A stretch of 55,997 nucleotides of DNA from Candidatus Zhuqueibacterota bacterium. GTDB lineage: Bacteria > SM23-31 > JBHPGK01. Positions within the stretch are counted from its first letter, which is position 1. Every line of letters starts with the position of its first letter. Positions 14,004 through 49,995 of this stretch are shown here, one piece after another. Under the pieces are notes generated by a model. The model ran no database searches. It saw only the letters and a list, made by a program, of their open reading frames with translations, and was not told the DNA's origin. The stretch is from positions 1 to 55,997 of the forward strand of contig JBHPGK010000003.1 in assembly GCA_042570605.1 (NCBI GenBank), given 5' to 3'. A program made the position numbers and the translations under genes.

Positions 14004-14043
14004 GACTATAACTTTTATAGTCTGAACAGTTATAAATATTTTA

Positions 14044-14082: not shown

Positions 14083-14104
14083 CCTCGTTTCTTAATCGTA
14101 TTTT

Positions 14105-14141
14105 AAACCTTCCCTGTTTAAAGACAGGGGAGGTTTTTTTT
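14105..14141 (+). terminator. Rho-independent terminator
   Basis: AAACCTTCCCTGT-loop-ACAGGGGAGGTTT followed by a T run. Confidence 0.8.
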
Positions 14142-14153
14142 GTCTGAAACAAC

Positions 14154-14990
14154 CTCTCGCAGAGACGCAGAGTACGCTGAGAATATTTGTAGGGAAACGG
14201 CTGTTTGCCCTTTTTTAATACCACAGAGTCGTCATTGTGAGCGCAGCGAATCAATCTCATGGCATTAAGAATTCATTGTGTGTATGGTAGGAGATTCCCA
14301 TTTTCATGGGAATGACACGGAAGTGGAACTGTCATTGCGAGGAGTTCTTATCCCGGTTTACCGGGATAAGAACGACGTGGCAATCTCACTGTTTGAAATA
14401 ATCAACCGCAGAGGCGCAGAGGCACAGAGAATATTTGTAGGGGAGCGTGTCCCGATCCCGCCCGTTTGTATTATTATTCCTTCCGCTGAATCATCTCTTT
14501 ACTTCGTAGCTTATGGATTGCTTCGTCAGTTCCTTCGCTTCACTCAGGACAAGCCTCGCAATGACAAAAGAAAGTGTCATTGTGAGCGCAGCGAATCCAT
14601 CTCATGGCATTAAGAATTCATTGTGTGTATGGTAGGAGACTCCCATGAAAGTGCGTGTTGCACAACAGCAAGAATGTCACCCTGAACTTGGTTCAGGGTC
14701 TCCAAAGCAAAAGATAAGATTCTGAAACAAGTTCAGAATGACAGTTTTGAGCCTTCAACTTTTTCAAAAAAGAGTTGTGCAACACACACTTTCATGGGAA
14801 TGACACGGAAGTGGAACTGTCATTGGCAGGAGCGAAGCGACAGCCTGTCCCGAAACCTCGGGGAAGCAATCTACCTCCACGAAGTACATACACTCCATAA
14901 GATTCCCATAATTAAACGCCCCCTGGTACTCGGGGGGACGCGGTGATACCCAATACTCCCCTATATCGTTTTGCGCCATGCGCTATACTC
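14154..14990. repeat. Intergenic REP mosaic with a 71-nt direct repeat and a nested insertion
   Basis: 14231-14301 repeats at 14576-14646 (2 mismatches); several GTCATTG..GCAATCT and ATTCCC-N8-GGGAATGAC palindromes; 26-nt inverted repeat 14641-14666 / 14774-14799. Confidence 0.8.
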
Positions 14991-15071
14991 TTCAATAATA
15001 ACCTTGATTTTTTACCCCATTTGAAGTAAATTTTTGTAATTCAGGAAACAATATATTTTCATATTAATTTT

Positions 15072-15959
15072 ATGAGCAAAAAATTTAAACATAGAATAGA
15101 GTATGGGGGTGTAAGGTTTATTTACGCATTGAACCGGCTTTTTCCCCATAGGCTTGCTATCCTGTTTGCTGACTGTCTTGCGCTGTTCGGATTTTACGTG
15201 ATAAGAATGAGACGTTCTGTGACCCTTGATAACCTCAGGAACGCATTCGGTGATAAAAGTGAAAAAGAATTAAGAAAAATTGCTTATTCAGCTTATAAAC
15301 AGTTTTCAAGAATGATGTTTGAATACGCGAGGTTTCCATATTTCACCGATAAGGAAATTATTAAAAAGGTAGCCCTTGAGAACGAACATGTCCTGAAGGA
15401 ATCATTGGAAAGAGGAAAAGGGGCAATAATTGTGTCGGGGCATTTCGGCAACTGGGAACTGATGGCAGCCGGTATTGCACGGCATGGGTATCCCGTCAGT
15501 CTTCTTGTCGGTGAACAGAAGAACAAAATGGTCGATGATGCGATGAACAACTTCAGAAAAGAGAAGGGGATGGGTATCATTAAGATGGGTGTTGCTGCCA
15601 GGGGCGTAATAAAAGCAGTCAGGGATAATAACTTTGTCGCCCTTCTGTCCGACCAGGATGCAGGCAGGCTCGGTACATTTGTGGATTTTTTCGGGAGGAA
15701 AGCATCCACACCGGGCGGGACAGCTGCGTTTGCTTTAAAAACCGGGGCAGATGTAATATTCAGCATCACCCTGAGGATCGGAAAATGTAATCATAAGGTC
15801 ATCCTTGAAAAAGTAGAATATGATGACATCAAAGATGAAGGCAAAACCGCAATAGCAGAACTTACGCAAAGATATACCTCAAGGCTGGAACATTATGTCA
15901 GGGAATATCCCGATCACTATTTCTGGATGCATAAAAGATGGAAATCAAAACCGGAGTGA
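15072..15959 (+). CDS. lpxL: Lipid A lauroyl/myristoyl acyltransferase (LpxL/HtrB family)
   Basis: GHFGNWE, LLSDQDA, FVDFFG, YPDHYFWMHKRWK motifs. Confidence 0.9.
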   Translation: MSKKFKHRIEYGGVRFIYALNRLFPHRLAILFADCLALFGFYVIRMRRSVTLDNLRNAFGDKSEKELRKIAYSAYKQFSRMMFEYARFPYFTDKEIIKKVALENEHVLKESLERGKGAIIVSGHFGNWELMAAGIARHGYPVSLLVGEQKNKMVDDAMNNFRKEKGMGIIKMGVAARGVIKAVRDNNFVALLSDQDAGRLGTFVDFFGRKASTPGGTAAFALKTGADVIFSITLRIGKCNHKVILEKVEYDDIKDEGKTAIAELTQRYTSRLEHYVREYPDHYFWMHKRWKSKPE

Positions 15960-15962
15960 AAT

Positions 15963-16973
15963 TTGAAGGTCCTGATCGTTCAGACTGCCTTTCTCGGTGA
16001 TGTAATTCTCACTATACCATTGATAAGGGCACTGAAAAAACATATCAAACCGGTGCATCTTCATATCCTTCTCCGCCCGGAAGCTGAAGATGTCTATAGG
16101 AACGATAAAGATATCGATAATATTATAGTTTATGATAAAAAGAACTCTGAAAAAGGTATTCAGCATTTATTTAAGCTGATAAAAAAGGTAAGAGCTGAAA
16201 AATACGAATTAGTAATTTCACCGCACAGGTCGGTGCGTTCTGCTCTGATATCCTATTTATCCGGGGCAAAACAAAGAGTGGGATTCGATAAGAATTCAAT
16301 GAGTATTTTATATAATAAGAAAGTCAAATATATTAACGATAAGCATGAGGTTGAGCGTAATTTAAGCCTTATAGAACCTATTTATGACGGGGAGATCAGT
16401 ATAACGCTGAATATGCAGAATTCAGAAAATGACCGTAAAAAAGCGGATGAATTGATCTCAAATACCGTGAGAGCTGCCGGGCAGGACATCGTGTGTATGG
16501 CACCGGGTTCCGAATGGAGTACAAAAAGATGGCTAACGGAATATTACAGGAAGCTTATTAAATTGTGCAGTTTATCTGATATAAAAGTCGTGCTGTTAGG
16601 GGGTAGTAAGGACAAAAATATCTGCGGTAATATCTCGATCGGATTTGAAAATGTGACAGATCTAAGTGCGAAATTATCCGTTAATGAATCATCGGAGGTA
16701 ATGAAACAATGTAAGCTTCTTGTGTGCAATGATACGGGTGCAATGCACATCGGTTCGGCTTCCGGTATAGATATTATCACTGTATTTGGCCCTACAGTCC
16801 CTGAATTTGGATTTTCCCCTTTTGGTGTGAAAAATAAGATATTACAGTCGGATATTTACTGCCGTCCATGCAGCATTCATGGCGGGGAGAACTGCCCGGA
16901 AGGGCATTTTTTGTGTATGAGGAGTATTACCCCGGATGATGTTATGCAAGAGATCAGGAGATTTTTGAATTAA
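15963..16973 (+). CDS. waaF: GT9 LPS heptosyltransferase II-like
   Basis: QTAFLGDVIL, APGSEWSTKRW, CNDTGAMH, FGPT, CRPC..CP..HFLCM. Confidence 0.8.
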   Translation: MKVLIVQTAFLGDVILTIPLIRALKKHIKPVHLHILLRPEAEDVYRNDKDIDNIIVYDKKNSEKGIQHLFKLIKKVRAEKYELVISPHRSVRSALISYLSGAKQRVGFDKNSMSILYNKKVKYINDKHEVERNLSLIEPIYDGEISITLNMQNSENDRKKADELISNTVRAAGQDIVCMAPGSEWSTKRWLTEYYRKLIKLCSLSDIKVVLLGGSKDKNICGNISIGFENVTDLSAKLSVNESSEVMKQCKLLVCNDTGAMHIGSASGIDIITVFGPTVPEFGFSPFGVKNKILQSDIYCRPCSIHGGENCPEGHFLCMRSITPDDVMQEIRRFLN

Positions 16974-28611: not shown

Positions 28612-28638
28612 TAAAGTTTACTAAAATAGTGTCGATTA
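28612..28638 (+). promoter_or_regulatory. Sigma-28 (FliA/SigD) promoter
   Basis: TAAAGTTT-N11-GTCGATTA against the consensus TAAAGTTT-N11-GCCGATAA, just upstream of flagellin. Confidence 0.82.
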
Positions 28639-28690
28639 TGAGAAAAGAAGGAAAATATTCAAATCTCTTATATATATATAAGGAGGTATT

Positions 28691-29539
28691 ATGGCGATAG
28701 GCGACTCAACCCGCATTAATACCAATATAGCCGCATTTAACGCTTTAAATGCTTTAAAGGGTGTTAATAGGAATTTAGAAGTAAGCCAGCTCAAGTTGGC
28801 TACAGGTCTTCGTATTAATGAAGTATCTGACGATCCTGCCGGTTTTGTCATTTCAAAAAGATTAGAAGCGAGATCAAGAGGATTGACCACTGCTCTGGAT
28901 AATGTAGGTACCGCTAAAAACCTTTTGGCTATTGCTGAAGGAGGTATGTTAAATATCTCCGATATTTTGATCACAATGAAAGAAAAATTAACCCAGGCAG
29001 CCTCAGATTCTCTTGGATCCGCAGAAAGAAATGCTATAAAAACTGAGCTTCTGCAGCTGACTGAAGAAATAAATAATATTGTCAGTGAAACATCATTTAA
29101 TAACCGTGCATTAATTGACGGTACTTTCTCCGGCATTTCATTGCAAACCGGTGAAGGCACTACAAATACACTTATTGTAAATTTAACAGACATTAATACT
29201 GCAACGGGCTTATCGGTAACATCTGCAAACGTTGCAAACCAGGTTTTTACTGCCACCGGTGCAAGTTCAGCACTTGATAAAGTCAATACAGCCATTGAAT
29301 CTGTTTCTGATTCATTACAGAACATTGGGAGTCTAATTTCAAGGTTGAGTGTAAAAGAATCAACTCTTTCAGTTGCAATTACTAATACAGAAGCTACACG
29401 AAGCAGAATTATTGATGCTGATATTGCAAAAGAGCAGCTTGTTTCAACAAGAAATCTTATTCTACAGCAAACATCAACAGCACAGTTAGCACAAGCGAAT
29501 TTAACTCCGCAAAATGTGTTAGCATTATTCTATACTTAA
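28691..29539 (+). CDS. fliC: Flagellin (short, D0/D1 only)
   Basis: RINTNIAA, LATGLRINEVSDDPAG, SRIIDADIAKE, ILQQ..AQLAQAN; AAGGAGGT RBS. Confidence 0.95.
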   Translation: MAIGDSTRINTNIAAFNALNALKGVNRNLEVSQLKLATGLRINEVSDDPAGFVISKRLEARSRGLTTALDNVGTAKNLLAIAEGGMLNISDILITMKEKLTQAASDSLGSAERNAIKTELLQLTEEINNIVSETSFNNRALIDGTFSGISLQTGEGTTNTLIVNLTDINTATGLSVTSANVANQVFTATGASSALDKVNTAIESVSDSLQNIGSLISRLSVKESTLSVAITNTEATRSRIIDADIAKEQLVSTRNLILQQTSTAQLAQANLTPQNVLALFYT

Positions 29540-29595: not shown

Positions 29596-29631
29596 GGGGA
29601 AACGTATATTTTATTGTTTCCCCTTCTTTTT
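29596..29631 (+). terminator. Probable terminator after flagellin
   Basis: GGGGAAAC-loop-GTTTCCCC then TTCTTTTT. Confidence 0.6.
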
Positions 29632-29717: not shown

Positions 29718-31283
29718 ATGTTTTCAGAAATTAAAAAAAACAGGCTTTTAATTAATTTTTTCAAAATTTCCAGCGGTACTTTAGTTTCAAGGATACTGGG
29801 ATTTGTCAGGGAACTTGTTGTAGCATTCTATTTTGGAACTACAAAATATATGGATGCTTTTGTTTATGCTTTTACGATTCCAAATTTGTTCAGAAGGATA
29901 CTTGGAGAAGATATGGTTGAACGGGGGCTTATGCCGCCTGTTAAGGCTTTTCTGGCGAAAGATGAAAAAAACAAAGCCTCTAACCTTGTTTCTTCCCTTT
30001 TTAATATTATGTTTGTAGTTCTTATAATATTGATGCTTCTTTTATATATTGCCGCACCTATATTAGTTAAATTAATTGCACCGGCAGTTGAGAAGGAAAC
30101 ATTTGATATTATACTGAAGTTTACTTATGTGATACTGCCTTTTATGGTTTTTATCGGTATGGCAGCTTTTGCGGGGGGTCTGTTAAATATTCTCGAAATG
30201 AATATTATATACAGTTTTGCCCCTGTTATGCTGAGTATTGGAGTTATTGTAAGCCTTGTTTTTTTCAGGCCGGTATTTGGAAATTATGCTTTAACAGCAG
30301 GATTCCTTTTAGGTGCGCTTCTTCAATTTTTAGTACAGGTACCGTTCTTACTGCATAAAAGAGTGAAAGAAAGGACAGGGCTGAGTTACCGGCTGAACTT
30401 CAATATTGAAGGTAGATCAAGAAAAAAGATAAAAAAAGAAAGCATTTTTATTGCATTACAGTCAATATTAAACAAAAGTGTAGAACTGGTGGATAAGATC
30501 CTGGCTTCATTTCTTTTAACAGGCAGCATTTCCGGATTGTATTACTCTCAGCGTCTTGTTCAACTGCCTAATGCGATCATTGGGTTAGCGATATCACGTT
30601 CCATCACGCCTTATCTAACTGAAAAAAATGCCGTTGATAATTTAGATGATTTCAAAAAAGGGATTTTATACGGGATTAAGTTTAACCTTTCAATTATACT
30701 TCCAATTATGGCTTTGTCAATAATTTTGAGAAATGAAATTATCTATATTATTTTTAAGAGAGGAGACTTTACTTTAAACAGCGTTTTCCTTACTTCTCTT
30801 CCTTTCTGGTGTCATATGATAGGCTTACCTGCAATGAGCCTGAATTTTCTTTTCTCAAGGGGATTTTCGGCAATACAGAGAAATAAGATCCCATTTTACA
30901 CAGCTGTTTTTGCTACTGTTTTAAACATTATATTGAGTCTAATCCTGGTTAAGACTCAATTAAAACACGGCGGGCTTGCTCTCTCCTCTTCCATTGCTTT
31001 CACTTTTAATACATTAATACTATATATAATGCTGAACAGGTTTTTAGCTGAAAAAGGCGTCCCTATAAGATTAAACGACCTTTTTAAACCTGTTCTAAAA
31101 ATACTTCTCGGCACAGCCTTTTTTAGTGTATTGGTATTTTTTACTTCTGAATTCATTAAAAATTCTTTGTTTTTTAAGAATAATTTTAACGATTTTTCTT
31201 TAAATTTAATTATTGTGTGTTTAACTTCTGCTGTAGGATTTTTATTTTACATTATGTTTAATTATATTGTAAAAAAGTATTAA
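29718..31283 (+). CDS. murJ: Lipid II flippase MurJ (MviN)
   Basis: SRILGFVRE, AFTIPNLFRRILGE, LQFLVQVP, YYSQRLVQLP, RGDF, HGGLALSSS; ATG 29718 preferred to TTG 29667. Confidence 0.93.
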   Translation: MFSEIKKNRLLINFFKISSGTLVSRILGFVRELVVAFYFGTTKYMDAFVYAFTIPNLFRRILGEDMVERGLMPPVKAFLAKDEKNKASNLVSSLFNIMFVVLIILMLLLYIAAPILVKLIAPAVEKETFDIILKFTYVILPFMVFIGMAAFAGGLLNILEMNIIYSFAPVMLSIGVIVSLVFFRPVFGNYALTAGFLLGALLQFLVQVPFLLHKRVKERTGLSYRLNFNIEGRSRKKIKKESIFIALQSILNKSVELVDKILASFLLTGSISGLYYSQRLVQLPNAIIGLAISRSITPYLTEKNAVDNLDDFKKGILYGIKFNLSIILPIMALSIILRNEIIYIIFKRGDFTLNSVFLTSLPFWCHMIGLPAMSLNFLFSRGFSAIQRNKIPFYTAVFATVLNIILSLILVKTQLKHGGLALSSSIAFTFNTLILYIMLNRFLAEKGVPIRLNDLFKPVLKILLGTAFFSVLVFFTSEFIKNSLFFKNNFNDFSLNLIIVCLTSAVGFLFYIMFNYIVKKY

Positions 31284-31295
31284 GGGCAGTCTGTT

Positions 31296-33305
31296 TTGAA
31301 ATCAAAAAAATATATTTTTACAGGGGGTGGAACAGGTGGACATGTTTATCCTGCCATTGCTATTGCTGATGAGTTACTGAGATTAGATCCTGAAGCAGAA
31401 ATACTGTATGTTGGAAATAAAAAAGGTGCAGAATCTCATATTCTACCTAAAAAAGGATATAAGGTAAAATATGTTGCGTCAGTAGGTCTGACATCGGGAA
31501 TTTTGTCTTTTAAGTTTATAAGGTTTTTATTAATACAGTTTATGGGATTTTTGAAATCTCTTTTTATTATTTTATCATTCAGACCTGATGCTGTAGTAGG
31601 AACAGGGGGTTATGTAAGTGCCCCGGTAGTGATTGCGAACGTTTTTTTGCGAAAATTACACCTGTCGAGATCGAAAATTATTATTCATGAGCAGAATGTC
31701 GTGCCGGGAAGACTGAATGATCTTGTTGCGCGTTTTTCCGACCTGACAATTGTGTCATCTTCTCAGACAAAGGATATACTCCCGCAGGGTATAATACTCG
31801 GTTATCCTGTGAGGAAGTCAGAAAAAAAGATTTCAAAAGAAGAAGCCAAAAGGCGGCTGAATATTCCTGAAGATAAAAAAGTTGTTTTTATTTTCGGAGG
31901 TTCTACCGGTGCCAGAACGATAAACAGGGCAGTTATAGAAGCCCTCCCGCTTTTAGCACAATATGAGAAAATATTTGTCATTCATGGAATAGGGCGTTAT
32001 AGATCACTGGAATATGATGCGGTCAAAGATACTGATACAAAGTTAAAAAAACTGAATTTTAAAAGGGAAAAAAGCCAGTTCTATCTCGCTAAGGATTATT
32101 TTTATGAAATTGACCTGGTCTATTCTGCAGCCGATCTTGTTGTTTCGAGAGCTGGGGCAGGGACGATCGAAGAACTTAAATCCATAGGGCTGCCGTCAAT
32201 CATTATTCCTAAAGCAAACCTGCCGGGAGACCATCAGGTATTAAATGCAAGGGCACTTGAGCAGTCAGGTGCTTGCAGCATAATTTTTGAGGAAGTTAAG
32301 TACGATGCCGGAAAAGTTATTTCTTATGTTGACGGAGAAAAACTTGCTCAGAAAGTCATTGATCTTCTATTTGATGAAAATAAACTAAATGAAATAAAAA
32401 TTAATGCCGGAAAATCATATAACCGGGAATCATTAAGCGAAATAAAAAAAGCAATAATTAAGATAGTAAAAGGTGAAAATGTTACAGGCGGAATAGATCT
32501 AAAAGATAAAATGAATTCAAGTGATATTAAAAATTACTATAACTTAGGTGCCTACGGATTACTGAGGAAAGTGAATCAGCTGGTTCAGGGTATTAAAGAT
32601 AAGGATATCACTTCACTTCCTGAATGGGATTATCTTTCCTATAGAGCCGCCGGCTATCTTGTATCTGATAACTGGGAAATACGAAATGTGGGCGTGAAAC
32701 TGTTAGGTCTGCTGAAAAACGAAAAAAAACTGAACCTGTTAATTTCGATATTAATGGATAAAAGACCAAGCAGTTCATTTAAGAAATTTTTTGGGGGGGA
32801 TTATTTTCATGTGGGATTCATTAGAAGGAATACGGTTTATTCTATCATGAATATTGGAGTTTATAATAATGAAATCAGGGATGTATTAATATCTGTGTTA
32901 CGGACTGATCCGTATTACGAGGTCAGGGCTGCTGCTGCTGAAGCATTAACACAATTTTCAGATGAAATAAAAGAAGATATTGAGCTTGAGAATGTATTGA
33001 TCGAAAACCTGAATCATTCTTCATTTGAAGTAGTTAATGAAGCTATCACAGCATTAGGGAAGATAGCATTTTCTGAAGGGGCACTTGAACATCTGAAGAA
33101 GATGCTTTTTTCAACAAAATGGCAGTTCCGTGATAGTGCAGTTAGAGCTTTCATTGATATTTCTGAAAGGGGAAATTACAAAGACATTGGTGAACTAAGA
33201 AGTTTTTTAAAAGATATAATGGTAGTATGCACGGATTTTAAACCTGAATTTCCTCTGAAGAAATCAATTCTTGATCTAAACAGGCGAATAGAAAAGCGGA
33301 GTTAA
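31296..33305 (+). CDS. murG: MurG GlcNAc transferase fused to a C-terminal HEAT-repeat domain
   Basis: GGGTGGHVYPA, GTGGYVS, HEQN, GGSTGA, SRAGAGT, DHQVLNA; extra ~280 aa with HEAT-like repeats. Confidence 0.9.
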   Translation: MKSKKYIFTGGGTGGHVYPAIAIADELLRLDPEAEILYVGNKKGAESHILPKKGYKVKYVASVGLTSGILSFKFIRFLLIQFMGFLKSLFIILSFRPDAVVGTGGYVSAPVVIANVFLRKLHLSRSKIIIHEQNVVPGRLNDLVARFSDLTIVSSSQTKDILPQGIILGYPVRKSEKKISKEEAKRRLNIPEDKKVVFIFGGSTGARTINRAVIEALPLLAQYEKIFVIHGIGRYRSLEYDAVKDTDTKLKKLNFKREKSQFYLAKDYFYEIDLVYSAADLVVSRAGAGTIEELKSIGLPSIIIPKANLPGDHQVLNARALEQSGACSIIFEEVKYDAGKVISYVDGEKLAQKVIDLLFDENKLNEIKINAGKSYNRESLSEIKKAIIKIVKGENVTGGIDLKDKMNSSDIKNYYNLGAYGLLRKVNQLVQGIKDKDITSLPEWDYLSYRAAGYLVSDNWEIRNVGVKLLGLLKNEKKLNLLISILMDKRPSSSFKKFFGGDYFHVGFIRRNTVYSIMNIGVYNNEIRDVLISVLRTDPYYEVRAAAAEALTQFSDEIKEDIELENVLIENLNHSSFEVVNEAITALGKIAFSEGALEHLKKMLFSTKWQFRDSAVRAFIDISERGNYKDIGELRSFLKDIMVVCTDFKPEFPLKKSILDLNRRIEKRS

Positions 33306-33306
33306 A

Positions 33307-34413
33307 ATGTTATTTGAATTAACTAAGTATTTATACAGTAATTTCAGTGATTTTTCATTTTTCCGAATATTTAATTATATAAGTTCGCGGGCGATCTTTG
33401 CTGCTTTAACTGCCTTTTTTATACTCTTATTTTTCGGAAACCGGATGATAGTCTATCTTCATAGAAAAAATTACAGGGATATGGTAAGAGACTTCGGGCT
33501 GGTAACTTCATTTGACAAAAAAGGGACTCCAACTTCAGGTGGTATACTTATACTAATTGCTATTTTCATCCCTACTCTTTTATGGTGCGATCCTACAAAC
33601 AGATTTATTCAGATCGTTACAGCGGCGTTATTCTGGTTTGGCGGGTTAGGATTTGTGGATGATTATCTAAAAAAGAAAAATGAAAGCAGTCAAAAAGGGC
33701 TTAACTGGATAATAAAATTGATTTTACAGATGACATTCGGTGCTGCTCTTGGGTTTATTTTACTTACTGAGGGAATATCTCCAATCAGCCAGGACCTGGC
33801 AGCAAATCTGTATGTGCCTTTTTACAAGCATGCTGTTGCCGATCTCGGATGGTTATACATTCCTTTTATTGTATTTGTCGTTGCTGCAATTTCTAATTCG
33901 GTCAATCTTGCTGACGGAATGGATGGGCTTGCCATAATGCCCGTTAATTTTGCTTACATAGTGTACGGGATTTTTGCTTTTGTAATAGGTAACAGAATAT
34001 ATTCCGAATACCTGCTGTACAGTTATATTCCCGGGGCAGGTGAACTTAGTATTTTCTGCGGCGCTGTTTTTGGTGCAGGACTTGGATTTTTGTGGTATAA
34101 TTCTTATCCGGCTCAGATTTTTATGGGTGATACAGGCTCAATCTCTCTTGGAGGGATTTTAGCGACTCTTGCAGTACTTTTGAAACAGGAGATACTGTTT
34201 CTTATCTTAGGCGGATTTTTTGTCATTGAGGCGGCAACCAGCCTTATTCAAAGTCTCGGGATCAAATACCTCGGAAAAAGGATCTTTTACAGGGCTCCGA
34301 TTCATCATAATCTTGAATATAAGGGACTTGCCGAAACAAAAGTGGTAGTCAGGGTTTGGGTAATATCAGGGATACTTGCACTGATCAGCCTTGCTACGTT
34401 GAAATTAAGGTAA
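33307..34413 (+). CDS. mraY: Phospho-MurNAc-pentapeptide translocase
   Basis: KKGTPTSGG, GFVDDY, SNSVNLADGMDGL, FLWYNSYPAQIFMGDTGS, APIHHNLE. Confidence 0.95.
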   Translation: MLFELTKYLYSNFSDFSFFRIFNYISSRAIFAALTAFFILLFFGNRMIVYLHRKNYRDMVRDFGLVTSFDKKGTPTSGGILILIAIFIPTLLWCDPTNRFIQIVTAALFWFGGLGFVDDYLKKKNESSQKGLNWIIKLILQMTFGAALGFILLTEGISPISQDLAANLYVPFYKHAVADLGWLYIPFIVFVVAAISNSVNLADGMDGLAIMPVNFAYIVYGIFAFVIGNRIYSEYLLYSYIPGAGELSIFCGAVFGAGLGFLWYNSYPAQIFMGDTGSISLGGILATLAVLLKQEILFLILGGFFVIEAATSLIQSLGIKYLGKRIFYRAPIHHNLEYKGLAETKVVVRVWVISGILALISLATLKLR

Positions 34414-34418
34414 AGTAC

Positions 34419-35855
34419 ATGAAGGAAAACAGGTTTCATCTTCGTTCGGAAACAGAGCTTGCTTTGGATGAAATTATTGAAGCAGCAGACCCTGAAATTT
34501 TAGCCGGCAATTGCTCGAAATTCGGGGCAGTAACACTTGATTCAAGAAGTGTAAAAAAAGATGATCTGTTTTTCGCTCTTAAAGGGGAGTCTTCCGATGG
34601 GCATAAATATATCCAAAATGCCCTTAATAATGGTGCAGGTGGAGTAATATTAGAATCTATCACTGAGATAACAGACCTCTCTAAATTTCAAAATATAACA
34701 ATCCTGAAAGTACCTGATACTCTGGAGACTCTTCATATACTGGCAAAGAAAAGACTGGAAAAATACAAATTAAAGAATATTAAGATCAGCGGCAGTATTG
34801 GTAAAACAACAGCCAGGAAAATGGCTGTTTCAATATTTGAGATAAAAAGCGGTGTTTTGACAAACTATAAAAATTACAACAACTATACAGGACTTCCTCT
34901 GACGCTATTGAGGGCAAAAAAGGGACACGAGTATGGAATTCTGGAACTCGGGATCAACCAGCCCGGAGAGATGGAAAAACTGGCAAACCTGGTAAATTCA
35001 GAAATTTCCGTTCTGCTTAATATAAGACCTGTTCATACTGAGTTTTTTGATAATGTAAATCATATTTTCCATGAAAAACTCAAAATTATAAATGAGAAAA
35101 ATTCCACCCTTATTATTAATAATGATGATAATCTTCTTAACGGATTAAAGAATAATCCGGATATAAAACTGTTAACTTATGGTATTAAAAACAAAAGCGA
35201 TGTTTCAGCAAAAAATATTAAAGTTTACAGCGAAGGCAAACATGGTTTTTCTTTGACTACACCTGAATATGAGTTAGAAATAAGACTTTCTGTTATCGGC
35301 AGGCATAATATTTACAATGCTCTTGCTGCATCTTCGATAGCATATTATTATAACCTGGATAAAGAGCAGATAAAAGAAGGTCTGGAAAAGTTTGTACCTG
35401 AGGATATGCGGTGCAGCATTATCAATTTAAAAAATGGTGTAAAGATCATAAATGACTGCTATAATGCAGGACCAGACTCAACAAAAGCAGCCCTTACATC
35501 ATTAGGTGATTTTTCAGGGTGTAATAAAAAATTAGCGGTCCTGGGTAAAATGCTTGAATTGGGAAGTGAAGAAGATAATTATCATTTTGAAATAGGGGAA
35601 TTTGCCGGAAATATGAGCCTTGATTATATTTTTGCATTTGGAGATAACTCTGCAAAAAAATATATCGAAGGTGCAATCAAGGCAGGTATTCCGGTGGATA
35701 GAACCTGCTTTTCGGATAACAAAATCAAAATTTTTGAAGAATTGTGTAATATACTTGAAGAAGGTGACTGTGTCCTTATTAAAGGATCACGAGGTATTAA
35801 AATGGAAGAGATTACTAATATGCTGATTGAGAAGTACGGAGTTGAAAATGAATAA
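34419..35855 (+). CDS. murF: UDP-MurNAc-tripeptide D-Ala-D-Ala ligase
   Basis: DSR, DGH, SGSIGKTT, NYNNYTGLPLTL, NDCYNA, LGKMLELG, KGSRG; start ATG 34419. Confidence 0.93.
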   Translation: MKENRFHLRSETELALDEIIEAADPEILAGNCSKFGAVTLDSRSVKKDDLFFALKGESSDGHKYIQNALNNGAGGVILESITEITDLSKFQNITILKVPDTLETLHILAKKRLEKYKLKNIKISGSIGKTTARKMAVSIFEIKSGVLTNYKNYNNYTGLPLTLLRAKKGHEYGILELGINQPGEMEKLANLVNSEISVLLNIRPVHTEFFDNVNHIFHEKLKIINEKNSTLIINNDDNLLNGLKNNPDIKLLTYGIKNKSDVSAKNIKVYSEGKHGFSLTTPEYELEIRLSVIGRHNIYNALAASSIAYYYNLDKEQIKEGLEKFVPEDMRCSIINLKNGVKIINDCYNAGPDSTKAALTSLGDFSGCNKKLAVLGKMLELGSEEDNYHFEIGEFAGNMSLDYIFAFGDNSAKKYIEGAIKAGIPVDRTCFSDNKIKIFEELCNILEEGDCVLIKGSRGIKMEEITNMLIEKYGVENE

Positions 35856-37272
35856 ATCATTCGGTTTGCAGAACGGGGCGAAAAAGATCCATTTTACGGC
35901 TATATGCGGGACGGGTATGGGGTCTGTTGCAGTAGTCCTGAAACAGATGGGCTTTGAAATAACAGGGTCAGATGAAAATATATACCCTCCAATGAGTAAT
36001 ATATTACACGATAACGGTATTAGAGTATACTCCGGTTATTCCCGGAAAAACATTAAAGATGATATTGACATTTTTGTGATCGGAAATGCGATGTCCAGGG
36101 GTAATCCTGAAGTAGAGGAAATCCTCGCAAAAAAGAAATTCTATATTTCCCTGCCGGAACTTGTAAAGGAAATATTTATCAGAGGCAGAAATTCAATTGT
36201 AATTACCGGGACACACGGAAAAAGTACTACGACTGCTCTTGCTTCCCTTGTATTTGAATATGCAGATAAAAAACCGGGATTTTTAATTGGCGGTGTTCCC
36301 CTCAATTTTGATTCAGGATGCAGGAAAGGAGATGGAAAACATTTTATTATTGAAGGGGATGAATACGATACGGCTTTTTTTGACAAACGAAGCAAATTTG
36401 TACATTACCTGCCTGATTATCTTGTAATTAATAATATAGAATTTGACCATGCCGACATTTTTAATACTCTTGATGAGATAATTTTATCTTTTAAAAGAGT
36501 AGCAAATATTGTCCCGGAAAATGGACTGATCTTAGCTAACGGAGACGATCCAAATGTTGAAAAGGTTATCCGGAAGGTTTCGGCACCTCTTGAAAAATAC
36601 GGTTTTGAAAATAAGAATAAATGGAATGTTAAGAATATAGAATATAACGGTGACAATACAACATTTGATGTATATAAGGATAATAAATTTTTTGGGAAAT
36701 TCACATTACCTCTTCCGGGAAAATGTAATATTATTAATTCACTGGCAGTAATTGCCCTTTCTTTTCATAACCGTATTGATAATAAAGTGATACAGGAAGC
36801 ATTTCTGAATTTTAAAGGATTAAAAAGGCGGTCTGAAATAGTTGGAGTTGAAAAAGGAATAACTGTAATTGATGATTTTGCCCACCATCCCACTGCAGTG
36901 AGGGAAACCCTTTTTGGTTTAAGAAAGAAATACAACGATAAAAGAATCTTTGCGGTTTTTGAGCCGAGAACAAATACCACAAGGAGAAAAATTCTTCAGA
37001 ATGAACTTGCAGAAGCTTTTAATTCTTCTGATTTCGCTGTTATTGCAAAAATAAATGCTCCGGAAAAGGTACCGCAGGATGAAAGACTTTCAATTGAGCG
37101 GCTGATAAAAGATATAAATGCAAATGGAGTTAAAGGTGAATATATACCTGAAACTGATAACATTATCAGTTTCTTACTGAATGAATGCAAAAAGGATGAC
37201 GTGGTTGTATTTATGAGTAATGGCGGATTTGATAATATAATATTGAGATTTCTTGATAAACTGAGGAGTTAA
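35848..37272 (+). CDS. mpl: Murein peptide ligase (UDP-MurNAc:L-Ala-gamma-D-Glu-mDAP ligase)
   Basis: Mpl-type motifs ICGTGMG, GNAMSRGNPEVE, EGDEYDTAFFDKRSKF, EFDHADIF, DDFAHHPTA, FEPRTNT, MSNGGF. Confidence 0.9.
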   Translation: MNKSFGLQNGAKKIHFTAICGTGMGSVAVVLKQMGFEITGSDENIYPPMSNILHDNGIRVYSGYSRKNIKDDIDIFVIGNAMSRGNPEVEEILAKKKFYISLPELVKEIFIRGRNSIVITGTHGKSTTTALASLVFEYADKKPGFLIGGVPLNFDSGCRKGDGKHFIIEGDEYDTAFFDKRSKFVHYLPDYLVINNIEFDHADIFNTLDEIILSFKRVANIVPENGLILANGDDPNVEKVIRKVSAPLEKYGFENKNKWNVKNIEYNGDNTTFDVYKDNKFFGKFTLPLPGKCNIINSLAVIALSFHNRIDNKVIQEAFLNFKGLKRRSEIVGVEKGITVIDDFAHHPTAVRETLFGLRKKYNDKRIFAVFEPRTNTTRRKILQNELAEAFNSSDFAVIAKINAPEKVPQDERLSIERLIKDINANGVKGEYIPETDNIISFLLNECKKDDVVVFMSNGGFDNIILRFLDKLRS

Positions 37273-43310: not shown

Positions 43311-44396
43311 ATGAACATATCTAAAAGAACTTCAACAATATTTCATTTAATTCTGCTGCTTGTTTTACTTTACCTTTTCTTTTTAAGTATTCAATTGATG
43401 AGCCATTCTCTCAAACTTTTCGGAAAAGATTTTGCAGCAGATCTAATCGCTACCACATCAAATCCTATTGTTGGGTTGTTTATAGGAATTCTTACCACAA
43501 GTTTGATCCAGAGTTCATCAACAACGACTTCAATTCTTGTTACTCTTGTTGCAAGTGGTGCAATGACAATTGAAAATGCTATCCCGATAGTCATGGGAGC
43601 AAATATTGGTACGACTATTACAAATATTCTGGTATCAATGGCTCATATCACGAGGGGGCAGGAATTCAAAAGAGCTTTTGCCGCATCAGTTGTTCATGAT
43701 ATGTTTAATATAATTGCAGTTGCAATAATTTTACCAATACATTTATTTACAAATTTTCTATATGATTCAGCTACATTCCTGGGAAAAATATTCGAGAATA
43801 TCGGTGGATTAAAATTTGCCAGCCCTATTAAAGTTATCACCAGTCCCGTAATTGAACTCCTGAGTAAAATTACTTTTGAAAACGGGATAGTAACTTTAAT
43901 TCTATCCCTGGTTTTTCTTTTTATAGCATTAAAATATCTTGTTTCTACGATAAAAGTACTTGTTATTGCAAAAGTTGAAGCAGTATTTGATAAAGTTATC
44001 TTTAAAAATGCAGCAATTGCAATGTTTTTTGGGTTTTTATTAACTGCTGTTGTCCAGAGCAGCTCTATTACTACTTCTCTTATTGTACCACTTGCAGGTG
44101 CCGGTATTTTAACTGTATACCAGATATTTCCTTATACTTTAGGGACAAATGTTGGAACAACTGTTACGGCATTAATGGCAGCGCTCGCTACTAATAATGT
44201 CTCTGCTGTTATCGTTGCATGTGCTCATTTTCTATTTAATATATCAGGAATTATTATTATTTGGCCAATAAGAAAAATACCCATATTTTTGGCAATAAAA
44301 TTTGCAGAAATTGGAACGGAAAGAAAAGTATTAGCTGTTACATATGTTATAGCGGCTTATTTTTTAATTCCAATATTATTAATATATATATTTTAG
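43311..44396 (+). CDS. Na+/Pi cotransporter (NptA/SLC34 family), copy 1
   Basis: Two QSSS repeats, MGANIGTTITN, VHDMFN, LGTNVGTT. Confidence 0.92.
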   Translation: MNISKRTSTIFHLILLLVLLYLFFLSIQLMSHSLKLFGKDFAADLIATTSNPIVGLFIGILTTSLIQSSSTTTSILVTLVASGAMTIENAIPIVMGANIGTTITNILVSMAHITRGQEFKRAFAASVVHDMFNIIAVAIILPIHLFTNFLYDSATFLGKIFENIGGLKFASPIKVITSPVIELLSKITFENGIVTLILSLVFLFIALKYLVSTIKVLVIAKVEAVFDKVIFKNAAIAMFFGFLLTAVVQSSSITTSLIVPLAGAGILTVYQIFPYTLGTNVGTTVTALMAALATNNVSAVIVACAHFLFNISGIIIIWPIRKIPIFLAIKFAEIGTERKVLAVTYVIAAYFLIPILLIYIF

Positions 44397-44428
44397 GTAA
44401 TTTATGTGTTTATTAATTGGAGGTTTAA

Positions 44429-45112
44429 GTGATGGTATTTAGTAAAATAATAGATATATTCCGCAAGGAAAATCTGTTAATGCAGGCTTATGAGTTAAGC
44501 TATAAGATGCTTGAAATGGATCTGGAGATGTTCAAAAAATCAGTTTCATTTTTAAGAAAAAGTACTGGAAAAGAATTCGATTTTGATATTTATGCTTATG
44601 ATAAGAAGATCAATGAATATGAACGGGATGTCAGAAAAAAAGTAATGACTCATCTCGCTCTTTCCAATCCAACTGATGTTTCTCCGTCTTTAATTCTGAT
44701 TAGTATAATTATTGATGTTGAGAGAATAGGTGATTACACTAAGAATATTACGGAATTAGCTGTAAACTATCCAGATAACCTTGAAGGCGGTAAGTATGAA
44801 CAGACCCTTGCTGATATTGAAATAAAACTGACAAAGAATTTTGAGAACGTAATTTCCTGCTTCAAAAATTACAACATTAATATTGCTAAGAAAATTATGG
44901 ATGAAAATGCGCTTATTAATAAAGAGATTAATAAGATACTTGTAAAGTTGATGAAAAAAGAAAATTCCGATTTTTCTACCCGGGAAGGGATTGTGCTTGC
45001 ATTATATTTCCGTTTTTTGAAGCGGATCAGCTCACATGTTAAAAATGTTGCATCCGGTATCGTTAATCCTTTTCATAAAATCGGCTTTAAAGCTGAAGAG
45101 ATCGAAAATTAA
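44429..45112 (+). CDS. PhoU-domain protein, copy 1
   Basis: DKKINEYERDVR, DVERIGDYTKNI, KRISSHVKNV. Confidence 0.85.
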   Translation: MMVFSKIIDIFRKENLLMQAYELSYKMLEMDLEMFKKSVSFLRKSTGKEFDFDIYAYDKKINEYERDVRKKVMTHLALSNPTDVSPSLILISIIIDVERIGDYTKNITELAVNYPDNLEGGKYEQTLADIEIKLTKNFENVISCFKNYNINIAKKIMDENALINKEINKILVKLMKKENSDFSTREGIVLALYFRFLKRISSHVKNVASGIVNPFHKIGFKAEEIEN

Positions 45113-45245
45113 ATTTTAACCTTCAGTACCAGCCCGGACAAAAACAAATTTCTGATTTTTAACAAAAATATTTTTTGAATTGTTTGGTTTTTTCATAAAA
45201 AATCATATATTAAAAATTCAAAGTATTTAAGAAAATTTTCACAAT

Positions 45246-46331
45246 ATGGAAATACCGCAAGGATACAAAACCCTATTAAGAATATTCTTTCTGCTTTTCT
45301 CTATTTATCTTTTCTTTTTAAGTATAACTTTATTAGGTAATTCATTAAAGTTTCTTGGAGAGGGATTTGCAGAAAATTTAATGATAACTACTTCAAGTCC
45401 GTTTATTGGTTTGTTTATCGGCATTCTTTGTACCAGTATTATTCAGAGTTCATCTACAACAACTTGTATTTTAATCGGAATAGTTAGCGGTGGTGCGATA
45501 TCGGTTGAAAATGCGATTTACATTGTTATGGGTGCAAATATCGGTACAACAGTTACAAATGGCTTGGTTTCATTAGCTCATATATCGCGAAATCAGGAGT
45601 TCAGGAGGGCTTTCTCCGCTTCAGTAGTCCATGACTTTTTTAATATAATGGCGGTTATTATAATATTTCCATTCCAGTATTTTACTAATTTTCTGGGCAA
45701 AACGGCTGGTTATTTAGGAAACCTTTTTGAAAATGCCGGAGGTTTGAAATTTGCCAATCCGATAAAAGTAATTACGGAACCGGTTAATGGAGTTATTGAA
45801 AATCTGGCAAGTCAAAACGGCATATTGCTCATTATAATTTCTCTATTCATTTTGTTTTTTGCATTGAGAAATATGGTAAAAACTATAAAAAAGCTGGTAA
45901 TTGATAAAGTAGAAAACCTTTTTGATAAAGTGATTTTTAATACTCCCATTAGAGCATTTTTATTCGGGCTTGTTCTAACAGCTGTAGTTCAAAGCAGTTC
46001 TATTACCATATCATTAGTAATTCCATTGGCAGGTGCCGGAGTGTTGACTTTATATCAGGTTTTTCCCTACGCACTGGGCGCAAATTTAGGTACTACAGTA
46101 ACAGCTTTACTTGCTGCTTGTGCAAGTAATAATATTTCTGCAATAGTTGTGGCATTTGCACATCTTATATTTAATTTCACAGGGATTTTAGTAATTTATC
46201 CATTCAGGAAAATCCCGATATTTTTAGCCAAGAAATTTGCTGAAAAAAGTACTGAAAAGAAATATTTTGTTATAGCCTATATAATTACCTTGTTTTTCAT
46301 CATACCGGTTCTATTGATATATTTATTTTAA
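45246..46331 (+). CDS. Na+/Pi cotransporter (NptA/SLC34 family), copy 2
   Basis: Two QSSS repeats, MGANIGTTVTN, VHDFFN. Confidence 0.92.
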   Translation: MEIPQGYKTLLRIFFLLFSIYLFFLSITLLGNSLKFLGEGFAENLMITTSSPFIGLFIGILCTSIIQSSSTTTCILIGIVSGGAISVENAIYIVMGANIGTTVTNGLVSLAHISRNQEFRRAFSASVVHDFFNIMAVIIIFPFQYFTNFLGKTAGYLGNLFENAGGLKFANPIKVITEPVNGVIENLASQNGILLIIISLFILFFALRNMVKTIKKLVIDKVENLFDKVIFNTPIRAFLFGLVLTAVVQSSSITISLVIPLAGAGVLTLYQVFPYALGANLGTTVTALLAACASNNISAIVVAFAHLIFNFTGILVIYPFRKIPIFLAKKFAEKSTEKKYFVIAYIITLFFIIPVLLIYLF

Positions 46332-46347
46332 GAAGGAGGGTTTTACA

Positions 46348-47037
46348 TTGTTATTCAATAAAATACTTGATATTTTCCGAAAGGAAAATTTGTTGATGCA
46401 GGCATACGAGTTAAGTTATAAGATGCTTGAAATGGATCTGGAGATGTTCAAAAAATCAGTTTCATTTTTAAGAAAAAGCATTGGAAAAGAATTCGATTTT
46501 GATATTTATGCCTATGATAAGAAGATCAACGAATATGAACGTGATGTAAGAAAAAAGGTCATGACTCATCTCGCTTTTTCTAATCCAACTGATGTTGCTC
46601 CATCTTTGATATTAATTAGTATAATAATCAATATTGAAAGAATAGGGGATTATACGAAGAATATTTCAGAGTTGGCAGTTAATTATCCTATGACCCTTGA
46701 AGGAGGTAAATACGAAGAAATGTTAGAAAATATTGAGACAAATCTTACTAAGAATTTTAAGGATCTTATTTCTTGTTTTAAAAAGTATAATATTAAGGTA
46801 GCTAAAGAAATAATGGATGATAATGCACAGATTAACAAAAAAATTAATGATATTTTAGATGAAATGACAAAGGAAGAAAAGAGCGAATTTAGTACGAGAG
46901 AAGGAATTGTTCTTGCATTATATTTCCGTTTTTTAAAGAGGATCAGTTCCCATGTTAAAAACGTAGCATCCAGTATTGTTAATCCTTTCCATAAAATCGG
47001 CTTTAAAGCTGAAGAGATAGAAGGAAATCTAAAATAA
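46348..47037 (+). CDS. PhoU-domain protein, copy 2
   Basis: Close paralogue of 44429-45112; TTG start with GGAGG RBS. Confidence 0.85.
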   Translation: MLFNKILDIFRKENLLMQAYELSYKMLEMDLEMFKKSVSFLRKSIGKEFDFDIYAYDKKINEYERDVRKKVMTHLAFSNPTDVAPSLILISIIINIERIGDYTKNISELAVNYPMTLEGGKYEEMLENIETNLTKNFKDLISCFKKYNIKVAKEIMDDNAQINKKINDILDEMTKEEKSEFSTREGIVLALYFRFLKRISSHVKNVASSIVNPFHKIGFKAEEIEGNLK

Positions 47038-49908: not shown

Positions 49909-49910
49909 CG

Positions 49911-49995
49911 TGCCGGAGGCGGGACTTGAACCCGCACGCCCGGAAGGACCCTGCCCCCTCAAGACAGTGTGTCTACCAAATTCCACCACTCCGGC
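49911..49995 (-). tRNA. tRNA-Leu(GAG), CCA not encoded
   Basis: GCCGGAG acceptor stem, GGTAGAC D-loop, CTGTC-TTGAGGG-GGCAG anticodon arm, long variable arm, GGTTCAAGTCC; secG-tRNA-Leu(GAG) synteny. Confidence 0.96.

What the first reader, a model, noticed from the sequence alone, without database searches (positions are those of the whole stretch)
29718..37272. Self-contained tripeptide-to-flipped-lipid-II operon: murJ-murG-mraY-murF-mpl
Seen: five abutting genes (gaps 12, 1 and 5 nt, then an 8-nt overlap) in exact reverse pathway order, with no murC/D/E, ddl, ftsW, ftsI or other dcw genes. Known: Mpl ligates intact L-Ala-gamma-D-Glu-mDAP to UDP-MurNAc and bypasses MurC/D/E; MurF, MraY, MurG and MurJ then complete and flip lipid II; mpl and murJ are normally unlinked to the dcw cluster. 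Inference: a dedicated salvage or alternative peptidoglycan-precursor line, either parallel to a canonical dcw set (possibly for a different stem peptide or location) or replacing de novo synthesis.
Basis: partly seen in the sequence, partly recalled or inferred. Interest (0 to 1): 0.78.

Follow-up and report, generated by a model that had tools for sequence, protein, structure and literature searches.

The report
Housekeeping lipid II operon with MurG-HEAT
These five abutting cell-wall genes are real, but they look like the bacterium's only set rather than a spare salvage line, and their core is a little-known gene pair in which MurG carries a helical-repeat tail directly before MraY.

Summary
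murJ, murG, mraY, murF and mpl abut on the + strand with the stated spacings.

The interpretation mostly fails. In this 67%-complete genome each gene was found once. murE-murD-murC lie on contig C243 and ftsI-ftsW-ftsQ-like-ftsA-ftsZ on C78. This is the ordinary precursor line, re-sorted into three blocks. It is neither a parallel pathway nor a substitute for de novo synthesis.

- The tail sits directly before mraY in 24 of 25 informative fusion loci from several phyla.
- It is a separate gene in all 7 same-class relatives examined.
- HEAT-linked MraY and MurG each form one clade, with support 100/100.
- Five carrier genomes have no other mraY or murG.
- The dcw clusters of three carriers lack exactly these two genes.

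The murF and mpl linkage is absent at class level. Contig lengths suggest it recurs in two closer relatives.

A docking role for the tail is inferred only. My paper searches found no description of it.

The parts
29596..29631 (+). Terminator-like hairpin (GGGGAAAC ... GTTTCCCC followed by a T-run) after the flagellin gene; probable upstream boundary of the operon
   Evidence: Read directly from the sequence printed. The scan did not list it; its loop is about 12 nt and the scan allows 3-8.
29718..31283 (+). murJ, lipid II flippase (521 aa from ATG 29718; the longest ORF starts at TTG 29667)
   Evidence: TIGR01695 313.2 bits against cut-off 235.55 and PF03023 at 8.5e-85. Start candidates. The only copy found by tblastn in the genome.
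31296..32426 (+). murG catalytic part (GT28 N- and C-terminal domains, residues 1 to about 377 of the 669-aa ORF)
   Evidence: PF03033 and PF04101. TIGR01133 225.8 bits, below cut-off 250.25. The model matches P. aeruginosa MurG 3s2u with TM 0.89 by target. Sole family match in the genome.
32547..33305 (+). HEAT-repeat tail of the same ORF (residues about 418-669), joined to MurG by a linker of lower model confidence around residues 400-410
   Evidence: PF13646 HEAT_2 at residues 529-618. Helical repeats in the AlphaFold2 model, mean pLDDT 87.2 and pTM 0.82. 265 database proteins match the tail at E<=1e-3, and the 120 listed are almost all MurG+HEAT proteins of about 680 aa. Invariant motifs in alignments A1 and A2.
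33307..34413 (+). mraY, phospho-MurNAc-pentapeptide translocase, 1 nt after the murG-HEAT stop
   Evidence: TIGR00445 304.7 bits against cut-off 192.05. Sole family match in the genome. Falls in the HEAT-linked MraY clade, 100/100.
34419..35855 (+). murF, D-Ala-D-Ala-adding ligase (478 aa from ATG 34419)
   Evidence: TIGR01143 379.9 bits against cut-off 288.6. The only MurF-grade match in the genome by tblastn. The best matches among 30 relatives are same-class genomes at 37% identity.
35848..37272 (+). mpl, UDP-MurNAc:tripeptide ligase (474 aa), start overlapping the murF stop by 8 nt
   Evidence: TIGR01081 413.9 bits against cut-off 388.7, while the MurC model scores 320.5, below its 335.1 cut-off. 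A separate true murC lies on C243, 387.3 bits against 335.1. Junction.

Best explanation
This is the organism's ordinary, single-copy operon for the late steps of peptidoglycan precursor synthesis. MurF completes UDP-MurNAc-pentapeptide, MraY makes lipid I, MurG makes lipid II and MurJ flips it. Mpl is appended so that recycled tripeptide enters at MurF, alongside the de novo product of MurC/D/E encoded elsewhere.

The classical dcw cluster of this lineage has been re-sorted into at least three blocks:
- murE-murD-murC;
- ftsI-ftsW-ftsQ-like-ftsA-ftsZ;
- this block.

The core of the block is not a random fragment. It is a member of a distinct, widely scattered gene pair in which a HEAT-repeat domain always lies directly before mraY. 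That domain is fused to the MurG C-terminus here. In relatives it is a free-standing gene or sits in MurG-MurJ-HEAT fusions. MraY and MurG of these pairs form their own clades and are the only copies in the carrier genomes tested.

What is shown: gene identities, copy numbers found, gene orders, the two clades, and the conservation of the tail.

What is inferred: that the five genes are co-transcribed; that the HEAT tail is a docking surface holding MurG (and MurJ) to MraY so that lipid I passes directly to lipid II and to flipping; and that the pair displaced or left the dcw cluster.
For: Gene identities and junctions.

Single copies in the 67%-complete genome:
- tblastn with the five proteins finds no second murJ, murG, mraY or murF.
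- TIGR00445 and TIGR01133 each give one match.

De novo and divisome genes elsewhere:
- murE (553.8 bits), murD (326 bits) and murC (387.3 bits, cut by the contig end) are adjacent on C243, with no murF, mraY, ftsW or murG between them.
- ftsI-ftsW-(270-aa ORF)-ftsA-ftsZ lie on C78.

HEAT tail:
- 265 proteins match it at E<=1e-3. The 120 listed are nearly all MurG+HEAT proteins of about 680 aa.
- It carries invariant motifs.

Gene order:
- Of 80 loci fetched with the fusion profile, 26 carry a full-length fusion. mraY lies directly downstream in 24. One locus ends too early to tell (L033). One has no mraY within 1.9 kb (L059).
- The other 54 loci have a short MurG, and 53 of them sit among other dcw genes.
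- All 7 same-class relatives with a MurG match have murG followed by a separate HEAT ORF. In 6 of them mraY follows directly; in the seventh (L220) the contig ends inside the HEAT ORF.
- murJ joins the pair in several permutations: upstream (the window, L033), after mraY (L037, L038, L045, L052), or inside one ORF as MurG-MurJ-HEAT (L259-L261).

Trees:
- 27 HEAT-linked against 42 dcw MraY rows split at ultrafast bootstrap 100 / SH-aLRT 100.
- 32 against 54 MurG catalytic-domain rows split at 100/100.
- Acidobacteriota, Myxococcota and Thermodesulfobacteriota occur on both sides.

Carrier genomes:
- 5 of 5 carriers tested have one mraY over the cut-off and one murG.
- The dcw clusters of G033, G002 and G011 read ftsI-murE-murF-murD-ftsW-murC-...-ftsA-ftsZ, lacking exactly mraY and murG.

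Recycling: an AnmK gene (348 bits) is present on C159.

Close relatives: MurG-HEAT (56% identity), Mpl (68%) and MurJ (68%) homologs each sit on a single Logan contig of 8886 bp. A second trio sits on JGI contigs whose longest is 124182 bp.
Against: - The genome is only 67% complete, in 347 contigs. A second set in the missing third cannot be excluded from this assembly alone.
- No D-Ala-D-Ala ligase over its cut-off was found. There are only two Ddl-like fusion proteins.
- No LD-carboxypeptidase was found. The recycling route that would feed Mpl is therefore only partly seen.
- MurG scores below the curated MurG cut-off here and in all 5 carriers.
- Co-transcription is not shown. The promoter and terminator scans gave no excess over shuffles.
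- No result here bears directly on what the HEAT tail binds. The sequence search of solved structures returns only generic or designed HEAT-repeat proteins.
- One fusion locus (L059) lacks mraY downstream.
- The linkage in close relatives rests on equal contig lengths, not on seen DNA.
- The loci were picked by similarity to the fusion, so the sample for the trees is not random.
Confidence: 0.72

Rival explanations
1. One reading: a second, dedicated precursor line (for salvage, or for a different stem peptide or place) running beside a canonical dcw set that lies in the unassembled third of the genome.
For: - The genome is 67% complete.
- MraY and MurG belong to a clade apart from dcw copies.
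- MurF is divergent and sits on a long branch.
- mpl is coupled to murF by an 8-nt overlap.
Against: - The de novo ligase block on C243 runs murE-murD-murC with no murF, mraY or murG where a canonical cluster would hold them.
- ftsW sits with ftsI on C78, without murD or murG.
- 5 of 5 other carrier genomes have no second mraY or murG.
- The dcw clusters of three carriers lack exactly these two genes.
- MurF's best matches are same-class genomes.
Confidence: 0.07
2. Salvage replaces de novo synthesis: the cell imports or recycles tripeptide and has no MurC/D/E.
For: The block holds mpl but no murC/D/E.
Against: murE, murD and murC are present, adjacent and open. They score over their cut-offs on contig C243 of the same genome bin, whose contamination estimate is 0.79%.
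Confidence: 0.02
3. Plain dcw fragmentation without functional meaning: the genes drifted together by rearrangement, and the HEAT tail is a neutral accretion.
For: - The murF and mpl linkage is absent from all 8 relatives with an Mpl ortholog and from same-class relatives.
- The flanks of the pair differ between phyla.
Against: - The tail keeps invariant motifs across phyla, whether fused or split.
- It lies directly before mraY in 24 of 25 informative fusion loci, and in the 6 of 7 same-class relatives whose contig reaches that far.
- MraY and MurG co-segregate in one clade each.
- murJ repeatedly joins the pair and is even fused into it.
Confidence: 0.12
4. The same housekeeping operon, but the HEAT tail is not an MraY dock. 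It instead links MurG to something else: the Mur ligases, MreB or FtsZ-associated proteins, or a regulator.
For: - HEAT repeats are general protein-binding surfaces, and the tail resembles generic HEAT proteins only.
- MurG is reported as a scaffold for Mur ligases (passages of PMC10214165 read).
- Only 7 residues are specific to HEAT-linked MraY, with no obvious patch.
Against: The strict position directly before mraY, kept when the tail is split from MurG or placed after MurJ, points to MraY as the constant partner. This is inference from gene order only.
Confidence: 0.25

Closest known systems
Classical dcw cluster (mraZ ... ftsI-murE-murF-mraY-murD-ftsW-murG-murC-ddl-ftsQ-ftsA-ftsZ, as in E. 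coli)
   Same: The same enzyme families for the same steps. 53 of the 54 short-MurG loci fetched here show that canonical order or part of it.
   Different: - mraY and murG are outside the cluster, in the reverse order murG then mraY.
- They are joined by a HEAT domain and by murJ, murF and mpl.
- The remaining dcw genes are split into murE-murD-murC and ftsI-ftsW-ftsQ-like-ftsA-ftsZ.
Natural Mur chimeras surveyed by Shirakawa et al. 2023 (PMC10214165; passages read): MurE-MurF, MurC-Ddl, MurC-MurB, MurG-MurC, MurD-FtsW, MraY-MurG
   Same: Fusion of a peptidoglycan precursor enzyme to another polypeptide, taken as a sign of a multi-enzyme complex.
   Different: The partner here is a non-enzymatic HEAT-repeat domain. 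The words 'heat' and 'mpl' do not occur in that paper's main text. Its supplements were not read.
Mpl of E. coli (murein tripeptide recycling ligase; role recalled from general knowledge, family TIGR01081)
   Same: Passes the Mpl equivalog cut-off and fails the MurC one. A separate MurC exists.
   Different: It overlaps the murF stop by 8 nt. In 8 of 8 relatives with an Mpl ortholog, none of the other four genes lies within about 9 kb.
MurG-MurJ-HEAT single-polypeptide fusions followed by mraY
   Same: The same three parts (MurG, MurJ, HEAT tail) directly before mraY.
   Different: In the window MurJ is a separate gene 12 nt upstream of murG, and the tail follows MurG directly. murF and mpl are added downstream.

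Membership tests
MurJ (TIGR01695 equivalog) | Whole-protein score over the curated cut-off | tested here: met
   313.2 bits against 235.55.
MurG (TIGR01133 equivalog; GT28) | Whole-protein score over the curated cut-off | tested here: not met
   225.8 bits against 250.25. The MurG of 5 other carriers also scores 204-241 bits, below the cut-off.
MurG (TIGR01133 equivalog; GT28) | GT28 N- and C-terminal domains and the MurG fold | tested here: met
   PF03033 at 2.9e-31 and PF04101 at 5e-28. Foldseek top hits are MurG 3s2u (TM 0.89 by target) and 1f0k.
MurG (TIGR01133 equivalog; GT28) | Transfers GlcNAc to lipid I | not testable with these tools
   Inferred. It is the only MurG-like gene found in a genome that also holds the other wall-synthesis genes.
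MraY (TIGR00445 equivalog) | Whole-protein score over the curated cut-off | tested here: met
   304.7 bits against 192.05.
MurF (TIGR01143) | Whole-protein score over the curated cut-off; three Mur ligase domains | tested here: met
   379.9 bits against 288.6, with PF01225, PF08245 and PF02875 present.
Mpl (TIGR01081 equivalog) | Score over the Mpl cut-off and better than MurC | tested here: met
   413.9 bits against 388.7. The MurC model scores 320.5, below its 335.1 cut-off.
Mpl (TIGR01081 equivalog) | Ligates L-Ala-gamma-D-Glu-mDAP to UDP-MurNAc | not testable with these tools
   An enzyme assay is needed.
dcw cluster | Contiguity of mur genes with ftsI, ftsW, ftsQ, ftsA and ftsZ | tested here: not met
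   The neighbours are a flagellin gene and an OmpA-family gene. The fts genes are on C78 and murE/D/C on C243.
HEAT-linked murG-mraY pair (unnamed; defined here and in earlier notes of this scan) | Conserved HEAT tail directly before mraY | tested here: met
   The tail ends 1 nt before mraY. The tail motifs are shared with 17 other tails or free HEAT proteins.
HEAT-linked murG-mraY pair (unnamed; defined here and in earlier notes of this scan) | MraY and MurG fall in the HEAT-linked clades | tested here: met
   MraY: 27 rows, 100/100. MurG catalytic domain: 32 rows, 100/100.
Parallel (paralogous) lipid II pathway | A second mraY, murG or murF in the same genome | tested here: not met
   None found, with the caveat that the genome is 67% complete. 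None in 5 other carriers.

The most novel reading that the evidence does not exclude
The HEAT domain is a hard-wired adaptor that holds MraY, MurG and MurJ together as one membrane machine for making and flipping lipid II. This machine is a separate evolutionary type that has spread between phyla and displaced the dcw-encoded mraY and murG. In this lineage it has further drawn in murF and mpl, so that the de novo and recycled tripeptide streams meet at the membrane complex.
Probability: 0.3. Interest if true: 0.75.

Novelty: new variant of a known kind. Interest (0 to 1): 0.55.

Why it matters
Whether the last cytoplasmic and membrane steps of wall-precursor synthesis (MurF, MraY, MurG, MurJ) work as a physical complex is still argued from weak, transient interactions in model bacteria.

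A conserved domain that always travels with mraY gives natural material to test that idea. It is fused to MurG or to MurG-MurJ in many uncultured lineages. Its enzymes form their own clades and are the only copies in the carriers tested. The tail can be removed, and the complex co-purified or solved.

For this window in particular the result is sobering. The neat 'salvage line' is the normal line, and the coupling of mpl to murF is a local feature of a few close relatives.

Tried and rejected
- The metagenome scan with the fusion protein returned only distant, short MurG genes (25-34% identity) and no close relative. The five-gene order in close kin therefore could not be read from DNA. I fell back on equal contig lengths.
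- The promoter and terminator scans showed no excess over shuffles.
- Rfam gave no match in the window.
- The whole-protein fold search is dominated by MurG.
- Sequence search of solved structures with the tail profile gave designed alphaRep, HEAT and PBS-lyase-type proteins only. The protein atlas gave generic HEAT clusters and the MurG+HEAT cluster.
It was not run.
- Residues specific to HEAT-linked MraY numbered only 7, with no clear surface.
- I considered that MurF might be a foreign or paralogous ligase. I rejected this because its best matches among 30 relatives are same-class genomes (37% identity) and there is only one copy.
- Paper searches found no description of a MurG-HEAT fusion or of this gene pair: 'MurG' + 'HEAT repeat'; 'dcw cluster' + mraY + murG + Acidobacteria; 'division and cell wall' + gene cluster + mraY + murG + synteny; dcw evolution. 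The library lacks most subscription journals. The 2022 Nature Microbiology survey of the dcw cluster, which I recall, was not found in the library and was not read.
- Look-ups of this scan's earlier findings by place and by sequence gave nothing.

Full report
**Observation.** The ORF list and the junction sequences give:
- murJ: ATG 29718 to 31283;
- murG: TTG 31296 to 33305, a 12-nt gap;
- mraY: ATG 33307 to 34413, a 1-nt gap;
- murF: ATG 34419 to 35855, a 5-nt gap;
- mpl: ATG 35848 to 37272, with its start inside ATGAATAA, overlapping the murF stop by 8 nt.

Curated models agree. MurJ, MraY, MurF and Mpl all pass their cut-offs. The last gene scores 413.9 bits on the Mpl model (cut-off 388.7) but only 320.5 on the MurC model (cut-off 335.1), so calling it mpl is justified. 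MurG has both GT28 domains but scores 225.8 bits, below the 250.25 cut-off.

Upstream lies a flagellin gene followed by a hairpin and T-run (29596-29631, read). Downstream lies a convergent OmpA-family gene.

The window is otherwise that of a diderm bacterium, with lpxB, lpxK, a lipid A acyltransferase, a heptosyltransferase and a TonB-dependent receptor.

The murG ORF encodes 669 aa. Residues 1 to about 377 are MurG. The rest is a linker and a helical-repeat domain with a HEAT_2 match at residues 529-618.

An AlphaFold2 model built from 21 homologs is confident, with mean pLDDT 87.2 and pTM 0.82. Its N-terminal part superposes on solved MurG structures, with TM 0.89 by target to 3s2u.

**Is it a parallel or salvage-only line?** The window is contig C3 of a 3.63-Mb bin in 347 contigs, 67% complete and 0.79% contaminated.
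- tblastn with the five proteins finds no second murJ, murG, mraY or murF.
- The MraY and MurG family models each hit the genome once.
- murE, murD and murC (cut by the contig end) are adjacent on the 4.9-kb contig C243, and all score over their cut-offs. Nothing lies between them where a canonical cluster has murF, mraY, ftsW and murG.
- Contig C78 carries ftsI (cut by the contig end), ftsW, a 270-aa ORF in the place of ftsQ, ftsA and ftsZ.
- Two further SEDS/class-B PBP pairs lie on C130 and C321.

The de novo ligases therefore exist and the block is not a replacement for them. The holes in the other two blocks match what the window holds. That is what one expects if these are the only copies.

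The caveat is the missing third of the genome.

An AnmK gene shows that some muropeptide recycling is present. No LD-carboxypeptidase was found. No Ddl over its cut-off was found either, only two Ddl-like fusion proteins.

**The HEAT tail is a conserved family tied to mraY.** A search with residues 377-669 alone found 265 proteins at E<=1e-3. The 120 listed are almost all 660-720-aa proteins with the same GT28+HEAT make-up. Where named, they come from Acidobacteriota, Gemmatimonadota and Vicinamibacterales.

The alignments show invariant tail positions. In the numbering of the 669-aa protein these are W460, N464, G466, K468, a GGD...VGF.RRN stretch at 500-512 and DPY.E.R at 538-544.

A scan of one genome per species with this alignment kept 80 loci. 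The results were:
- 26 loci have a full-length fusion. They come from Syntrophobacterales, Myxococcota, Acidobacteriota, Gemmatimonadota, Latescibacterota, Delongbacteria and unclassified bins.
- mraY lies directly downstream in 24 of the 26.
- L033 ends 387 bp after the fusion and cannot tell.
- L059 has a convergent 621-aa ORF and no mraY within 1.9 kb.
- The other 54 loci have a short MurG, and 53 of them sit among other dcw genes in the canonical order.

The genome's nearest relatives in the species collection are no closer than 'same class'. In 7 of the 11 other genomes of that class the query found MurG. In all 7 murG is followed by a separate ORF of about 200-240 aa with the same tail motifs. 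mraY comes next in the 6 whose contig reaches that far; in the seventh (L220) the contig ends inside the HEAT ORF.

The constant feature is thus 'HEAT module directly before mraY', whether fused or split.

**murJ belongs to the neighbourhood too.**
- It lies upstream of the fusion in the window and in L033.
- It lies after mraY in four Acidobacteriota loci (L037, L038, L045, L052).
- In three genomes sampled from the phylum of G033, one ORF of 1094-1275 aa reads MurG, then MurJ, then the HEAT tail, followed by mraY.

In that phylum sample 12 of 151 genomes matched the tail profile at E<=1e-25, so the arrangement is a minority form there.

Other flanking genes differ between phyla.

**A separate clade and the only copy.**
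- In a maximum-likelihood tree of 69 MraY sequences, the 27 HEAT-linked rows and the 42 dcw rows are the two sides of one branch. Support is ultrafast bootstrap 100 and SH-aLRT 100.
- The same holds for 86 MurG catalytic domains, tail excluded: 32 against 54 rows, 100/100. Two rows, L080 and L053, were dropped for short coverage.
- Acidobacteriota, Myxococcota and Thermodesulfobacteriota appear on both sides.

The loci were chosen by similarity to the fusion, so the sample is not unbiased, and the trees are unrooted.

Five genomes that carry the fusion each have one mraY over the cut-off and one murG, namely the linked ones.

I looked at the dcw clusters of five carriers:
- G033, G002 and G011 read ftsI-murE-murF-murD-ftsW-murC-(ftsQ)-ftsA-ftsZ, which is canonical except that mraY and murG are missing.
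- G032 also lacks murF there.
- In G031 murD stands alone.

The pair is therefore the housekeeping MraY/MurG of these organisms, not a paralogous extra. Whether it was moved out of the cluster or came in by transfer and displaced the resident genes is not settled. The patchy distribution across phyla favours transfer.

**How far is the five-gene order conserved?**
- Mpl orthologs (40-52% identity) were found in 8 of the 30 relatives. None has murF, mraY, murG or murJ within about 9 kb.
- Same-class relatives keep murF in the dcw cluster.
- The window's MurF is divergent, but its best matches are same-class genomes at 37% identity. It looks like the lineage's own gene, relocated.
- The closest database homologs of MurG-HEAT (56% identity), Mpl (68%) and MurJ (68%) are each recorded on one Logan contig of 8886 bp. 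The window's block spans 7.6 kb.
- A second trio is recorded on JGI contigs whose longest is 124182 bp.

This suggests, but does not show, that the block is kept in two closer relatives.

**Mechanism.** Established knowledge of the families gives the chemistry.
- Mpl joins recycled L-Ala-gamma-D-Glu-mDAP to UDP-MurNAc.
- MurF adds D-Ala-D-Ala.
- MraY transfers phospho-MurNAc-pentapeptide to undecaprenyl phosphate.
- MurG adds GlcNAc.
- MurJ flips lipid II.

In this genome MurF receives tripeptide nucleotide from both MurE and Mpl. The tight spacing makes co-transcription and translational coupling likely, but this is inferred.

The role of the tail is also inferred. HEAT repeats are protein-binding surfaces. 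The tail has no enzymatic relatives. Its fixed place before mraY, its fusion to MurG or to MurG-MurJ, and the co-segregating clades all fit an adaptor that docks MurG (and MurJ) onto MraY. I could not test binding, because the complex prediction was never accepted by the queue.

**Comparison with what is known.** The enzymes are ordinary members of their families, and MurG is a divergent one. The arrangement departs from the dcw cluster.

The survey of natural Mur chimeras lists fusions between enzymes, including MraY-MurG. It does not mention HEAT or Mpl in its main text (PMC10214165; passages read; supplements not read).

A dcw survey says nothing on this in the passages found (PMC8871954). 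Four paper searches found no description.

Earlier notes of this scan describe the same MurG-HEAT/MraY pair and MurJ fusions in eight other genomes. I treated them as leads and checked the main points myself.

**Verdict.** The 'self-contained' description is fair. The salvage or parallel-pathway inference is not supported.

What is there is the normal late-stage precursor operon of a lineage whose dcw cluster has been re-sorted. It is built around a conserved MurG-HEAT/MraY pair for which I found no description in print. The mpl-murF coupling is a local addition.

Noticed in passing
window 33307-34413; trees: The window's MraY groups (97/91) with the fused-type MraY of Syntrophobacterales and Acidobacteriota rather than with the split-type MraY of its own class. 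Its MurG is likewise nearest to those rows. The fused pair may have reached this lineage by transfer.
   Followed up: partly
G000 contigs C227:190-2361 and C111:9279-11333: The only Ddl-like genes found are fusions below the Ddl cut-off. One is Ddl-like plus an M20-type hydrolase (724 aa, next to a gamma-glutamyltransferase). The other is a methyltransferase plus a Ddl-like ATP-grasp domain (685 aa).
   Followed up: partly
L036:9979-11358 and L051:9979-11355: MraY of two Myxococcota carriers is 459-460 aa, with an insertion of about 90 aa between the parts that align to residues 1-179 and 166-356 of the window's MraY.
   Followed up: no
L087:10980-12245 and L044:11110-12222: In a Gemmatimonadota locus and an unclassified one, a VWA-domain protein follows mraY directly.
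   Followed up: no
window 43311-47037: Tandem duplication of a two-gene unit: a Na/Pi cotransporter (361 aa) plus a PhoU-domain protein (227 and 229 aa), twice in a row.
   Followed up: no
window 8000-16000: GC content is 39-45% here against about 34-36% elsewhere. The stretch holds two large ORFs without any Pfam match (10525-12357 and 12414-14003), and has no ORF of 100 aa or more at 9051-10525.
   Followed up: no
window 28636-29325 (-): A 229-aa ORF without a family match lies antisense to the flagellin gene (28691-29539, +). It is probably not a gene.
   Followed up: no
window 49910-49995 (-): ARAGORN calls a tRNA-Leu(GAG) here, but the Rfam scan at gathering thresholds lists nothing in the window.
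   Followed up: no
protein P0314: A 581-aa JGI protein on a 4133-bp contig carries both the MurJ and the GT28 N-terminal Pfam domains. It is either a MurJ-MurG fusion or a gene cut by the contig end, in the order seen in the window.
   Followed up: no
G000 contigs C78, C130, C321: Three SEDS plus class-B PBP gene pairs are found in this incomplete genome.
   Followed up: partly
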